Source: Pseudobdellovibrionaceae bacterium
GTDB taxonomy: Bacteria; Bdellovibrionota; Bdellovibrionia; Bdellovibrionales; Bdellovibrionaceae
NCBI GenBank assembly: GCA_039810425.1
Contig: JBDHWW010000020.1
Coordinates: forward strand, 1-61,936
Direction: 5' to 3'
Length of the DNA stretch: 61,936 nt
Each line of letters starts with the position of its first letter. Within the stretch, counting starts at the first letter, position 1. The position numbers were made by a program. Positions 13,101 to 19,100 of the stretch are shown piece after piece.

Positions 13101-16100
13101 AGTTAAACTCAGTCCCCGTTTTTGGAAACGCCTGCGTCTTTGCGCCCGCTATGGCAATCGTCTGAAGCTTTGCATAGATCTCTTCTGGTGCGTGGTCCCC
13201 CGGCGCTTTAAAAAGGCCTGGTTTCATCGAGGCCTCCGTGGCCGCCGCGATCTCGCCGTCAGAACCACGTTCCACTTCGGTCGCGTTTTGAGGCTCTGTT
13301 CCTAACCCTGCACAACCGAGCATAAAACAGCAAAGCGCCAGTAAATATCTCACAGCACCACCTCGGCCGGTGGATCTTGCAAGTTGTAATCAGATCGCAT
13401 CACAAAACCATAAGCACCGACATCAGCAATCACGACAAAGTCGCCCTCTTGAATTTCTGGCAATGTACGATCTATCGCCAGAAAGTCGCCGGATTCACAA
13501 ATCGGTCCTACGACATCATATTTTTTTGCCACCCCTTGGCCCTCTTTCAAAGTCCAGACGCGGTGATGGGCCCCGTACAGTGTCGGGCGCATCAGGTGAT
13601 GCATGCCTGTATCAACGATCATGAAGTTCTTGACCGGGGTTTGCTTTAGATACTGCACTTGCGTCAGCAACACACCCGCATGGGCCACCAGCCAACGGCC
13701 CGGCTCGGTTTGGATTTTAGCTTTCAGGCCTTTCAGCACATCAAAAACAATCGCGGCGTATTCGTTTAATAACTTTTCTTCGGCTTCAAGCTCTTGCTCT
13801 TCGTAGTAGATCCCCAGACCACCGCCGATATCGAAGGTATCGACAGACGGAAATTCTTTTTGCAGCTCTTCATACACGGGACGAAGCAATTGCAAAGCGT
13901 CTCGGAAGCCCGACAGATTGTGCATCTGCGAGCCCAAGTGCAAGCTCATCCCGCGGAAATCCACGAAGTCAGCGTTGGCTTGTAGAATTTCTTTAAGCTG
14001 TGGCCAATCCGTCAATGCCATGCCGAATTTATTATTATGCAAGCCCGTTGCGATGTACGGATGAGTTTCAATACTCACATCGGGATTTAAGCGAAACACC
14101 ACGCGGGCTTTTTTCCTCATCTCACGCGCGATCTGCGCAATCCGGCGAAGTTCAGAAATGCTTTCGACGTTGAGTTGACGGATGCCCAACTCCAGCGCCT
14201 GACGGACTTCTTTCACCGTCTTTCCGACACCGCTATAGATCATTTCACCGGCTTTAAAACCGGCCTCCATCGCCGTGTGGATTTCACCGCCACTGACCAC
14301 ATCCACCCCAATTCCCATCTTGTGAAGACCGCGTAAAACCTGAGGATGAAAATTCGCTTTCATCGCATAGTACACCTGTACACCTGGCAAGGCTTTTTGC
14401 AATAGGCTTGCGCGTTCTTTCAGAATCTCGAGGTCATAAGCGTAAACAGGCTTTTCGTAGTTCTTCGTGAGGGGTTCTAGCGACTTCTTTTGGGGTCCTA
14501 GCACCAATTTGTGATTCTCATATTGCAAATACAACTTCGCTTTTGACATCTCTCACCCTCATGAGGTTCTATAAGGGCCTTGATTTTCGGCCCTGATTTT
14601 CAAGCTTAACGGGACGGTGAGGTCGTATGCAAACATCTGTTTTTGGATATAGCTCTTTGGGACTACCCATCATAGCCTATGAATTCCGCAATTCAGGTCC
14701 CGAGGTTCTGATCCTCGGTGGCGTTCATGGCGATGAGGTCGAAGGTGTTTTAGCCGCTCAAGCCCTGCTCCACAAATTTATGACCTCTTTCCCCTATCAT
14801 TTGAACCTGGTTTTGGTTCCGCAATTCAACATCGAGGGCGTTTTGAACAAAACCCGCGGCAATGCGCGCGGAGTCGATCTCAACCGAAACCTCACCACCA
14901 AGGACTGGTCGCCTGAAGTAAAGACTCCGCGATACCATCCAGGGCCCTCGGCCGGAAGCGAGCCTGAAAATCAGGCGCTGATGGAATACATTAACGAGAA
15001 AAAACCAAAGTGGATTTTGTCTCTGCACTCTTGGCACCCAGTACTGAACGTCAATGGCGACTGCCGGGCTGAGGCCGAAGTTTTGGCCAAACACACGGGT
15101 TACAAAATCGACGACGACATTGGCTATCCGACTCCAGGCTGCTTGGGCACCTATGCGGGTCTTGAGCGCCAATCCCCGACGCTGACCTACGAAATCGAGC
15201 GCGGCCAGGATCACGCCGAGATTTTAAAAATCCATGTGCCGGCGATTTTGGAAGCTTTGAAAGAAACTGAGAAAAGGAAATAAGCATGTCACTAGCGATC
15301 TCTATCCAATCCATCTGGGACGAAGTTCAAGCCGGCAGCAAGATCGATGATCTTTCCACGGAAAAGAAAAGTGCCATCGAACAAACCATCGCAGGCCTTG
15401 ATAACGGCACTTTGCGGGTCTGCGAAAAAAGCGCCACCGGCTGGATCACTAACGAGTGGATCAAAAAAGGCATTTTGCTTTATTTCCGCTTGATGAAAAT
15501 GTCTTTGATGAAGGCCGGTGATTTTAATTACTTTGACAAAATCCCCGTGAAACACTGGACCGGCAACGAAGGTGTTCGTGCGGTTCCACATGCGCTGGCC
15601 CGCCGTGGAAGCTTTATTGAAAGCGGCGCGATCTTGATGCCGTCTTACGTGAATATCGGCGCCTTCGTGGGCTCGGGCACTATGGTCGACACCTGGGCAA
15701 CAGTGGGAAGTTGCGCCCAGATCGGTAAAAATGTTCACCTCTCTGGGGGCGTGGGGATCGGCGGAGTTTTAGAGCCTATCCAAGCTTCACCAGCGATCGT
15801 TGAAGACAATGCGTTTATTGGCAGTCGCTGCATCGTGGTTGAAGGTGCGGTGATCGAAGAAGGTGCGGTTCTCGGAGCCGGTGTGACCATCACCGCTTCG
15901 ACAAAAATCATCGACGTGACAGGGCCCAAGGAAGTGATGTATAACGGCCGCGTTCCTAAAAACTCCGTGGTCATCCCCGGCACGGTGATGAAGAAATTCC
16001 CGGCCGGAGAATACGGCACACCGTGCGCGCTCATCATCGGCCAGCGCAAACCCAGCACGGATTTGAAGACATCACTCACAGACGCGCTTCGCGACTTCCA

Positions 16101-19100
16101 GGTTTCAGTTTAGCAGTTCGAGGCCCCCAAAGGGCTTTGCCCTCGCCAGGGGCGCTACCTGCTCGCGAAGAACTCGGTCGGCAGTCTTCACAAGATTAGT
16201 TCTTGATTCTCAGCGCCTGGGCAGGCTCGATTTCACTTGACGTGCGCGCTGGATACCAAGCGCCTCCTAAGCAAACAAAGAAGCCGACAATGAAGACCCC
16301 CCAAATCAGCCACGGGTCGACAAGGGCCGGAATCTGAGAGTCATAATAGATATCCGGCAGAATGTTCACCGGATTTTTTTCGATATAATAACTAATCCCC
16401 GTGCCAAAGATCAGGCCCGGAATCAAACCAAACGCCGCAAGCATCATCCCCATTTGGGTAAAAATCTTCACCGTGCGCTGATTCGAAAGCCCCAGAGTTT
16501 TAAGAATCGCGATATCGCGTTTCTTCTGCGACATCAGAAGCGCCAAAACCGACAAGATGGAGCTGGCCGCGATCAGGCCCGCGAGCCCCAAAAAAACGCC
16601 GATAATGACTTTCTCTAAGCGAAGTGCAAAAAACAAAACAGAGTTCCGGTCCATCCAGGTCTCAGCAATCACATCCGAGAACTTCTCGACCTCTTTTTTA
16701 AGGTCGTCCAAGTCCTTACCTTCTGGAGTCCATACCTCAATGCCGACTTTGCGGCTCGCCGCTCCTGCCAGTGTGTTGAGAGTCATATTTCTTTGATAAA
16801 ACACAAACTGTGAATCGAGATCGGCCAAATTCGTCGAAATGATTTTACTGACGCGGACTTTTTCAAATTTCGGAGACTCGCCCGGGGGAAGCAACAAGCC
16901 CTCTGGCGGAACCACTGTCAGGAAGTCCCCTTCAAACACCCCGAGGGACCGTGCAAGGTCGACACCGACGACCACCTCTCCTTTGCCGGGAAGCTCTTCA
17001 GGCCGCCAGAACTGAACATTTTCGTGATGTTTTTTCTCTTCCATCTGGTGAATTTGTTCGACCATGAACTTTAAGCTCTCGGCACTGACTCCGCGGGCGA
17101 TGGCGCCATGGAACTGACCATCCATCGTGCGTAAAATCACATCCTGAGTTTCATAGACATAGGCTTTATTCAGAGGATTTTCTTTAAGACGTTGAAAAAC
17201 CGGATGTAACTCCAGCGTCGATCCACGGTTCACGCCATTCACTGTGATATACAGATGCGGTTCCAGCGCGAGAATGCGCTTATGGATGCTTGCATTCATC
17301 CCATTCATAACAAACAGCACGATCAGAAAGGCAGTCACACTCAGGGCAATCGCTCCCACGGAGAGCCACGCAAGGCGTTTTACCAGCGCTCCGGCGCGTT
17401 TTGAGAAAATGAAATGACTGAAGAAATCCCGTACGAGCATCGGCCTTATTCTGAGGTCAAAGAGATGTCTTTTCAACTAAAGTGAAACGACCGTCTGCAA
17501 CAATTGGGTGCGCAGCAGGAGTTTTTACGCCCCGGACCGTTTTTTACGTTCCCAAGCGCTTTTTTGCACGAATGAGAAAACAACCGGCGGCCTTTCCGAA
17601 AGTCCGTGCCGGCTTTCTTCCCAAAGGCCACTCAATTACTTTGCTTCCGGAGAAGCGGGCTTGCGATCTTTGGCCGCTTCCTTGGCGGCTGCGGCGGCCT
17701 CCTCGTCGCGGACTTCTTGAACGCTGCCGCGGATAAGGAGACTCTTCTGCATGGCTTTGAGCATCACCACAGTTTCATTCAATGCTTCAACGGCGCGCTT
17801 CGTCGCCTGGGGAAGCTCCGGTCCGATGGCATTCAATGCCGGTCCCAACACTCGGAAGTCTTTAGTTAGCCCCGCCAAGTTTTTGCTCATCTCTGCAACG
17901 TCTTTCGCTAACTCGGGATTTGCCCGGTTCAGTTCCGGCAAGATGTTATTCAACTCTTGCGTCGTTACCGCCAAGTTACCAACCACGTTTTGCAAGTTGC
18001 CTTTGTGAGTCGCTTGGCGGCTCAGCTTCGTCATTTCGTTTGCCATGATTTCAATATTTGCCAAAAGCGGATCCAAGCGGTCAAAGATACGCACCAAAGA
18101 TTGCGTCCGGTCCTTGCTTGTCAAAGCCTCTACCATGTGAGCGAGGTTTTCCAGCGTTGTGCTTAGCTTCGTCAAATGACTGCCGAGCGCCTTGCCGCTC
18201 AAGAGCGTCATGATATCCATCGTCTCCGCCGAAGCCAAAGACTGATGCTGAGGCATCTCCGGGGAAAATTCTGAACCCACTGTCACTTCAAGCACGCGAT
18301 CACCGATGATGAATGGGCGGATCAACGACGTCGTACTGTCACGACGGATGCGCGGCTGGAATTTGTCCAGCACGTAAAAACTGACTTTGATTTTATTGTC
18401 TGCTTGAAGCTCGACATCTTCAACCGCACCGGCCCGCAGACCCGCCATCTGAACGATCGTCCCCGGATGAACCCCATCAGCGACTTCAAACGTCGTTGAG
18501 TAGTAGCTCTTTGTTGAAAACCAGCCCTGCCTGACAGCCACACTCAAAGCTGTGAGCAACACGCCCAAGACGGCCGCCAGCACAAAGATCCCGGCCACTC
18601 GTTCATACCTGTTGAACTTGTGTTTCATAGATGAACCACCTTTTTTTCGTGATCCACTGCCTGCTGATAGATCTGACCATCATCGAGATGGATGACTTGA
18701 TAGTTAAAAAGACTCATGTATTTTTCATCGTAAGAGCTCATGAAGATATGTTTCAAGTGCCCCTCCCCACGCATTTTGTGGATATAGTCGACAAACGTAT
18801 AGAGCGTATCCTGGCCCAAGCCTACGGAAGGATCATCCATGACTAAAACCTGCGGCTCCATCACAAGAGCACGAAGCAAACATGCAAGCTTTCTCACCCG
18901 GCCAGGGATGTGCGCCGGTCTTTCATGGGCGAATTTCTCAATTTCAAAAGTTTTAATGATGCCCTCAACACGGGCTTTTGCCTCGTTCATTGGAATGATC
19001 TTGTGATAGGCCAGTGGCAGCATCAAATTATCATACACCGTGCGGTTGCTGATCAGGCCACCGTAGTCAAACGTGTAGCCGATCGCCAAACGATACGGCA

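What a model noticed while it worked through the whole genome (the two positions that open the first line are those of the whole stretch)
14627..16113. An MpaA-like M14 peptidase stands in for DapE in the succinyl-diaminopimelate pathway
The genome has dapA, dapB, dapD, dapF and lysA but no native dapE. A 218-aa M14 zinc peptidase (g01760) lies directly upstream of dapD, beside lysA, across the whole order Bdellovibrionales. It is the likely N-succinyl-diaminopimelate desuccinylase, of a fold unrelated to the M20 DapE.
Evidence so far: DapD found in 31 of 31 genomes of the order; the M14 gene is directly upstream of it in 29 of 30 loci, the miss being cut at a contig end, with lysA, aspartokinase or murI as usual flank. 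DapE model TIGR01246: 0 of 30 relatives; the one hit here is on C129, a 62% GC outlier contig. The only other DapE/ArgE-like candidate (M20 g01006) is missing in 8 of 31; of 5 such genomes tested, 3 have no M20 peptidase at all, and DapL was not found in 5 of 5 tested. H34, E37, H134 and E189 are invariant in 29 of 29. The bond MpaA cuts (gamma-glutamyl to DAP) resembles succinyl-DAP (inference). Paper searches 97 and 98 listed nothing on this.
(Added by a program. Inside this text positions count along the whole contig: contig position 1 is position 1 of the stretch shown here. "Call 12" and the like, gene names such as g00115 and contig names such as C1 are that model's own, and its searches are not shown. 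The text may have been shortened before it was handed on; [...] marks where a part breaks off. The agent that wrote the report below was given it as the finding of a first reader that could run no searches.)

Follow-up and report, generated by a model that had tools for sequence, protein, structure and literature searches.

The report
Peptidase stands in for missing DapE
Predatory Bdellovibrio-type bacteria lack the standard enzyme for one essential step in making their cell-wall building block diaminopimelate, and a small zinc peptidase labelled as a cell-wall recycling enzyme very probably does that step instead, which would correct current annotation and is easy to test.

Summary
Confirmed and strengthened; no assay. 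The 218-aa M14 zinc peptidase (14627-15283) sits two bases before dapD, divergent from lysA. It lies directly upstream of dapD in 133 of 140 order genomes with both and beside dapD in 34 of 37 other phylum genomes with this DapD type, twice inside lysA-dapA-dapB-[gene]-dapD. DapE passed its cut-off in 0 of 251 phylum genomes; 10 of 151 order genomes have no M20 peptidase found. Lineages lacking the pair mostly carry DapL. In published 109J Tn-seq the orthologue is ND like dapD, dapA and dapF, while both MpaA paralogues and the M20 annotated as DapE have fitness values; noisy, polarity possible, not on the essential list. The dap-linked clade has R/K192 in 169 of 172; the glmU paralogue has mostly Glu. 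Corrections: the fold is distantly shared with DapE (Z 11.7); a second native M20 exists; three genomes have DapD without it. A published model gives DapE to the ast-cluster M20. Bacteriovoracales dap operons hold a second, AstE-like candidate. Confidence 0.85.

The parts
14627..15283 (+). MpaA-like M14 zinc carboxypeptidase, 218 aa; proposed N-succinyl-L,L-diaminopimelate desuccinylase
15286..16113 (+). dapD, tetrahydrodipicolinate N-succinyltransferase, 275 aa; starts two bases after the M14 stop
13350..14549 (-). lysA, diaminopimelate decarboxylase, 399 aa, divergent from the M14 gene
14550..14626 (.). 77-bp spacer between the divergent lysA and M14-dapD; no sigma-70 consensus found; aspartokinase lies here in many relatives
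14726..14737 (+). H34-x-x-E37, first two zinc ligands (role by analogy with M14 enzymes)
14882..14887 (+). N86-R87, C-terminal carboxylate-binding motif of M14 carboxypeptidases (role recalled)
15026..15028 (+). H134, third zinc ligand
15191..15193 (+). E189, catalytic base (role by analogy)
15200..15202 (+). R192, marker of the dap-linked clade; proposed to bind the succinyl carboxylate (inference)

Best explanation
The protein is the N-succinyl-L,L-diaminopimelate desuccinylase (EC 3.5.1.18) of Bdellovibrionales and several other Bdellovibrionota, in place of the M20 enzyme DapE. DapD succinylates tetrahydrodipicolinate; an AspC-like aminotransferase probably does the DapC step; this cytoplasmic one-zinc carboxypeptidase (H34, E37, H134; base E189) holds the free alpha-carboxylate of DAP with N86-R87, as MpaA does, and cuts the succinyl amide; R192 probably binds the succinyl carboxylate. 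DapF gives meso-DAP for the wall and LysA gives lysine. Shown: gene order, distribution, fold, residue conservation, Tn-seq pattern. Inferred: the reaction, the role of R192, the DapC assignment, origin from an MpaA-like ancestor.
For: Synteny: 133 of 140 order genomes; 34 of 37 other phylum genomes with close-type DapD, all 34 within 750 bp on one strand; lysA-dapA-dapB-gene-dapD in G270 and G157; stays beside aspartokinase and lysA in G045, where dapD has moved. Gap: TIGR01246 1 of 151, the C129 piece, over cut-off 0 of 251; no PF01546 in 10 of 151, all 91-100% complete; these 10 have a DapF match, no Ddh match and no DapL near cut-off. G019 (one 1.6-Mb contig) has this gene as its only PF24827 match and no M20. 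Exclusion: strong DapL in 66 of 199 phylum genomes outside the order, 3 of them with DapD; in family f18 29 of 34 have DapL and the 3 with DapD plus this gene have none. Tn-seq PMC6561027: RS04890 ND in all four conditions, as are dapD, dapA, dapF; lysA, both MpaA paralogues and RS12430 have values; dapA, dapB, dapD are on the essential list. R/K192 in 169 of 172 dap-linked proteins; Glu in 12 of 15 glmU-linked paralogues and 6 of 6 kinase-linked; Pro in E. coli MpaA. Precedent for replaced deacylases: PMC13759103, PMC3219624.
Against: No assay. Tn-seq: RS04890 is not on the essential list, ND is not defined for that table in what I read, an insertion could be polar on dapD, 14 of 108 rows read are ND, and normally essential genes (asd, aspS, lpxC, thrS, murI) have values, so a value for RS12430 does not prove it dispensable. 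G207, G288 and G306 have close-type DapD in a dap operon without this gene. G167, G188, G228 have the pair and DapL; four more DapD genomes have weaker DapL-family hits. Unlinked in G038. The closest solved relatives are MpaA and murI is a frequent neighbour. The model iCH457 assigns the step to Bd0129. Genomes are related, so counts are not independent.
Confidence: 0.85

Rival explanations
1. It is a true MpaA: it frees meso-DAP from murein tripeptide (own or prey) for LysA and MurE, and sits among dap genes for that reason; another enzyme removes the succinyl group.
For: Best sequence and structure matches are MpaA; databases name it MpaA; lysA and murI are common neighbours; predators digest prey wall.
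Against: Below the MpaA cut-off (95 of 157); no ycjG match in this genome; two other MpaA-like paralogues exist and have Tn-seq values while this gene is ND; it tracks DapD and avoids DapL; it is the one copy kept in 1.2-1.9 Mb genomes such as G137, G019, G029, G094; leaves 10 genomes without any desuccinylase candidate.
Confidence: 0.06
2. The ArgE/DapE-like M20 of the ast cluster (C9; Bd0129 in iCH457, RS12430 in 109J) is the real DapE, alone or sharing the job; the M14 protein does something else or is a back-up.
For: Published assignment (PMC7529429 supplements) and RefSeq name; ArgE/DapE-family scores, all below cut-off; G207 and G288, which lack the M14 clade, carry it.
Against: It lies in astC-[M20]-astA-astD with no AstE, which suggests succinylglutamate as substrate; it has Tn-seq values 0.5-1.2; no M20 was found in 10 of 151 genomes that keep dapD and the M14 gene.
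Confidence: 0.06
3. The gene is only carried along with dapD (shared promoter, translational coupling); its ND status is polar, and an unrecognised enzyme, such as the AspC-like aminotransferase acting as DapL or a deacylase of another family, fills the step.
For: Two-base spacing to dapD; an AspC-like aminotransferase is present in all 11 genomes tested and an aspartate aminotransferase is on the essential list; three genomes have DapD without the gene.
Against: Active site invariant in 171-172 of 172; kept when unlinked from dapD (G038, G045, two spirochaetes); dapD itself is essential, so the succinyl route is in use; the AspC-like proteins score 180-229 bits on TIGR03540 (cut-off 593) against 502-582 for true DapL of this phylum.
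Confidence: 0.03

Closest known systems
MpaA, murein tripeptide amidase (E. coli 5HXD, Vibrio 4AXV; NCBIfam NF007897)
   Same: Compact M14 fold (Z 27.1, rmsd 2.0, 211 residues to 5HXD); zinc ligands, NRN motif, GY-TPG motif and catalytic Glu; cuts an acyl-DAP amide (PMC6403190 passage).
   Different: 27-28% identity, below the family cut-off; R192 in place of Pro; lacks the insertion after W94; lies with dap genes, not with ycjG and mppA; ND in Tn-seq.
DapE (M20A; TIGR01246; 8F8O, 8VKT)
   Same: Proposed reaction and pathway slot; distant shared alpha/beta zinc-exopeptidase core (Z 11.7 and 11.1, rmsd 3.2).
   Different: 9-10% identity; no M20 model matches; 218 aa single domain with three zinc ligands against about 375 aa; DapE's two-metal site and dimerisation domain are recalled.
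Alternative DapE of Bacteroidota, Echvi_1427 (PMC13759103)
   Same: Non-orthologous filling of the DapE step in DapD-bearing genomes, shown by rescue of E. coli dapE9.
   Different: That protein resembles metal dipeptidases and N-acetyl-DAP deacetylase; the paper has no occurrence of 'M14' or 'Bdellovibrio'.
AstE / aspartoacylase / DoeB and Shewanella SO_3749 (NF052223)
   Same: M14-clan N-acyl-amino-acid deacylases: AstE 1YW6 Z 14.4, DoeB 6TWM Z 19.7; SO_3749 replaces ArgE; weak match to NF052223 (E 4e-4).
   Different: Other substrates and larger proteins; this protein belongs with the MpaA branch. That SO_3749 is M14-clan rests on the weak model match only.

Membership tests
M14 zinc carboxypeptidases (PF00246) | Model score above gathering cut-off | tested here: met
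   53.7 bits against 21.6
M14 zinc carboxypeptidases (PF00246) | HxxE...H zinc ligands, NR carboxylate site, distal catalytic Glu | tested here: met
   H34, E37, H134, N86, R87, E189 in 171-172 of 172
M14 zinc carboxypeptidases (PF00246) | Carboxypeptidase A fold | tested here: met
   model pLDDT 96.6; Z 24-27 to MpaA and carboxypeptidases A, B, T
MpaA equivalog (NF007897) | Score above curated cut-off | tested here: not met
   95.4 against 157
MpaA equivalog (NF007897) | Context with ycjG epimerase and mppA | tested here: not met
   E. coli context; no ycjG match in G000 at E 1e-4 and no such neighbour in the window
MpaA equivalog (NF007897) | Hydrolysis of gamma-D-Glu-meso-DAP in murein tripeptide | not testable with these tools
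   needs an assay
MpaA equivalog (NF007897) | Published substrate-contact residues conserved | not tested
DapE (M20A, TIGR01246) | Sequence family M20 | tested here: not met
   no M20 or DapE model matched at E 0.1
DapE (M20A, TIGR01246) | Shared zinc-exopeptidase core fold | tested here: met
   8F8O Z 11.7, rmsd 3.2, 175 aligned; 8VKT Z 11.1
DapE function (EC 3.5.1.18) | Co-occurs with DapD and DapF in genomes without DapE, DapL or Ddh | tested here: met
   three counter-cases
DapE function (EC 3.5.1.18) | Needed for growth without DAP | tested here: inconclusive
   ND in published Tn-seq, not on the essential list, polarity possible
DapE function (EC 3.5.1.18) | Hydrolyses N-succinyl-L,L-DAP; rescues a dapE mutant | not testable with these tools
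   needs complementation or assay

The most novel reading that the evidence does not exclude
Bdellovibrionota filled the DapE step twice from the M14 clan: an MpaA-derived minimal carboxypeptidase retuned by an Arg beside the catalytic Glu (Bdellovibrionales, several other families, passed to some spirochaetes), and an AstE/aspartoacylase-like protein in the dap operon of Bacteriovoracales; meanwhile an M20 took over the AstE step in the ast cluster, so the two hydrolase families have swapped their textbook jobs in one cell.
Probability: 0.45. Interest if true: 0.75.

Novelty: new variant of a known kind. Interest (0 to 1): 0.64.

Why it matters
It would be the first DapE activity on an M14 carboxypeptidase scaffold that these searches could find, and a case of a wall-recycling enzyme turned to wall-precursor synthesis. 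It would correct the annotation ('murein peptide amidase A') and the published metabolic model of B. bacteriovorus, which gives the step to the ast-cluster M20 and leaves this gene out. It predicts that DapE inhibitors aimed at prey or pathogens may spare the predator (inference), and offers a DAP-auxotrophy handle for a bacterium studied as a living antibiotic. A ready test exists: rescue of E. coli dapE9 as in PMC13759103.

Tried and rejected
Fusion search: 22 longer proteins at E 1e-30 among 8000 scored candidates, none with DapD or other dap domains; weak negative. Seven order genomes lack both genes; five were tested for DapL (TIGR03542) and Ddh with nothing over cut-off, and G025 also lacks NF006756 at 1e-100: most likely unassembled loci, not informative. 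TIGR03542 found 0 of 251 at 1e-60 and first suggested no DapL in the phylum; that was the wrong model: NF006756 found it. Families f19, f27, f24, f14 have M14 hits without DapD and first looked like counter-cases: those examined (f19, f27, f24) form another branch with Glu192, mostly before a histidine kinase, and 9 of the 16 such genomes have strong DapL; a gamma-proteobacterial DapD type was not found in 5 tested. The Bacteriovoracaceae M14 branch (support 100) is unlinked and mostly lacks R192, so I do not count it. No replacement found for G207, G288, G306. No sigma-70 promoter found in the spacer. The first tree lost the window's own row to de-duplication and was redone (FastTree only). 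A motif check picked wrong positions and was redone. tRNA scan did not map RS03495 to the C8 aminotransferase. The MpaA structure paper was not held. No complex prediction or read mapping was run. Earlier findings: none by sequence or words.
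Full report
Observation. The window holds lysA (13350-14549, minus), a 218-aa ORF (14627-15283) and dapD (15286-16113), with two bases between the last two. The middle protein is Peptidase_M14 (53.7 bits, cut-off 21.6), scores 95 against the MpaA cut-off of 157, and matches no M20 model. Its model (pLDDT 96.6) is closest to MpaA (Z 27.1, rmsd 2.0, 211 residues) and carboxypeptidases A/B. 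It also aligns to DapE 8F8O at Z 11.7, rmsd 3.2 over 175 residues at 10% identity, so the fold is distantly shared, not unrelated. It has no marked N-terminal hydrophobic stretch (1.3 against 3.1 for the C58 paralogue).

The gap in this genome. dapF-dapA-dapB lie together on C7, aspartokinases on C10 and C47, asd on C10. No Ddh or DapL comes near cut-off. Five M20 matches exist. Three are on C129 and C107, which look foreign by GC, GC3 and tetranucleotides; the C129 one is a true DapE piece. One, on C9, lies in astC-[M20]-astA-astD (same order in G067).

Order. Of 151 genomes, 141 have a match at E under 1e-55 (my cut) and 143 have DapD. Of the 140 with both, 133 have the gene directly upstream of dapD on the same strand within 350 bp. 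The other seven: one convergent, one 540 bp away, one two genes away, two split over contigs, two unlinked. In unlinked G045 the gene still adjoins aspartokinase and lysA; in G038 it has no dap neighbour. Three genomes have DapD only, each near a contig start; one has the gene only, at a contig end; seven have neither. TIGR01246 matched 1 of 151 at 1e-25, the C129 piece. PF01546 matched nothing at 1e-5 in 10 of 151, all 91-100% complete and all with the pair; all 10 have a DapF match (one below cut-off), none a Ddh match, and their best TIGR03540 scores are 180-229 against a cut-off of 593. G019, a single 1.6-Mb contig, has this gene as its only AstE/M14-type match.

Phylum. Among 199 genomes outside the order, 86 have DapD, 97 a profile match at 1e-40, 81 both. 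Of 37 with close-type DapD (E under 1e-85, my cut), 34 have the gene, all within 750 bp on one strand (read). G270 has lysA-dapA-dapB-[gene]-dapD co-directional and G157 the same with one small gene inserted; G191 has gene-dapD-aminotransferase. No genome of 251 passes the DapE cut-off. Genomes without DapD often have dapF-dapA-dapB-dapL. NF006756 matched 79 of 251 at 1e-100; 66 at 1e-135 or better (cut chosen afterwards at a gap in the scores), of which 3 also have DapD; 4 of the 13 weaker ones have DapD. In family f18, 29 of 34 have DapL and the 3 with DapD plus this gene do not. Counter-cases: G207, G288 and G306 have lysA-dapA-(dapB)-dapD without the gene and only distant M14 proteins. These genomes are kin, so no statistical test is offered.

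Clade and residue. In a FastTree tree of 129 domains (54 of 172 dap-linked ones sampled), one branch (support 91, 71 rows) holds all 54 dap-linked rows and a spirochaete group; 70 of its 71 rows have Arg or Lys at 192 against 3 of the 58 outside (read from row labels). Over all 172 dap-linked proteins 169 have R/K192, two are cut off, one has Gln; the glmU-linked paralogue has Glu in 12 of 15, E. coli MpaA Pro. The two spirochaete genomes tested have DapD at 64-66% identity and no TIGR03542 match; one has no M20 match (NF006756 was not run on them). That R192 binds the succinyl carboxylate is inference from its place three residues after E189; I had no coordinates.

Published genetics. PMC6561027 (seen: section 6, passages, Data Set S2 by search and 2 of 68 parts, Data Set S3 parts 1 and 3 of 3 and search). 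In S2, RS04890 'murein peptide amidase A' lies between dapD and lysA in the gene order of this window and of L372, which is how I map it. It is ND in all four conditions, like dapD, dapA, dapF and one aspartate kinase; lysA (W 1.5-1.8), the paralogues RS02285 (1.3-1.8) and RS02650 (1.0-1.3), and RS12430 'succinyl-diaminopimelate desuccinylase' in the ast cluster (0.5-1.2) have values. dapA, dapB, dapD and an aspartate aminotransferase are on the essential list; RS04890 and dapF are not. Limits: ND is undefined for this table in what I read; 14 of 108 rows read are ND; asd, aspS, lpxC, thrS and murI have values; an insertion may be polar on dapD; raw insertion counts for RS04890 were not in the files seen.

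Mechanism. MpaA cuts the gamma-D-glutamyl-DAP amide (PMC6403190, passage). Succinyl-DAP has the same acyl-alpha-amino-acid end with a free carboxylate, which is what an M14 carboxypeptidase binds (established knowledge; the fit is inference). I put 0.85 on the DapE role, 0.06 on recycling, 0.06 on the ast M20, 0.03 on a passenger gene.

What is known. PMC7529429 (passages and supplement searches) assigns the step to Bd0129, DapC to Bd0127, DapD to Bd1775, LysA to Bd1777, and has no Bd1776; that this gene is Bd1776 and that Bd0129 is the ast M20 are inferred from numbering. PMC13759103 (outline and passages) shows another DapE substitute in Bacteroidota and does not mention M14 or Bdellovibrio. 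PMC3219624 and PMC5764234 (passages) show SO_3749 replacing ArgE. PMC545781 (passages) notes missing dapC, dapD, dapE in other deltaproteobacteria. Ten searches (listings only for papers not named here) showed no report of this assignment; the library lacks most subscription papers, including the MpaA structure paper.

Beyond the finding. In 12 of 16 loci with the divergent DapD of Bacteriovoracales and kin, an AstE/aspartoacylase-family gene of 340-390 aa lies in or beside asd-lysC-dapB-dapA-dapD-lysA, directly after lysA or dapD in 10; it is close to Shewanella 3LWU and 3FMC (E 1e-77) and only remotely like this protein. It was not found in 3 of 5 genomes searched whole. It is a second candidate for the same step.

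Verdict. A real, well-supported, unassayed non-orthologous replacement of DapE; a new variant of a known kind; interest 0.64.

Noticed in passing
L209:8066-9202, L207, L208, L211, L363-L366, L368-L371: AstE/aspartoacylase-family gene in or beside the dap operon of Bacteriovoracales and kin in 12 of 16 loci; second candidate DapE substitute; not found in G260, G180, G322.
   Followed up: partly
L003:452-4039 (G000:C9), L373: ast cluster reads astC-[M20]-astA-astD with no AstE or AstB beside it; the M20 may do the AstE step. In 109J Tn-seq astA (RS12435) is ND, unexplained; a yceG/mltG gene follows astD.
   Followed up: partly
L204, L205, L206 (G207, G288, G306): lysA-dapA-(dapB)-dapD-ETF operons with neither this gene, DapE, DapL nor an AstE-like gene found; desuccinylase unexplained.
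   Followed up: partly
L374:6657-7853 (G000:C8), L185:7335-8534, L376: AspC-like class I aminotransferase, present in 11 of 11 genomes tested and next to dapD in G191; candidate DapC. An aspartate aminotransferase (RS03495) is on the 109J essential list; the mapping is not proven.
   Followed up: partly
window 59681-61084 (+): Second native M20 peptidase, 467 aa, PRK09133 subfamily above cut-off, with a moderately hydrophobic N-terminus.
   Followed up: partly
L007:1489-2211 (G000:C10), L008:1207-2091 (G000:C58): Two MpaA-like paralogues: one between glmU and a HAD gene near a histidine kinase (Glu192; M14-HAD fusions exist), one with a signal-peptide-like start; likely the wall-peptide enzymes.
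   Followed up: partly
L160, L166, L355, L356: Spirochaetes (Turneriella and a Spirochaetia MAG) carry the R192 clade beside folD and a DapD 64-66% identical to this one: possible transfer of the route.
   Followed up: partly
L247-L252: DapL (NF006756 type) in dapF-dapA-dapB-dapL operons is the main route in families f18, f19, f23, f25, f27; the plant-type model TIGR03542 misses it.
   Followed up: yes
G000 contigs C86-C148 (41 contigs over 56% GC, 154 kb): Probable contaminant contigs in the assembly, C129 with a DapE piece among them.
   Followed up: partly
PMC6561027 Data Set S2, RS14065: The only annotated asd has fitness values near 2 although dapA and dapB have no insertions; noise or an unrecognised second asd.
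   Followed up: no
window 16196-20192 (-): mlaE-mlaF-mlaD-like ABC genes and a lolC/E-like permease converge on dapD in most relatives.
   Followed up: no
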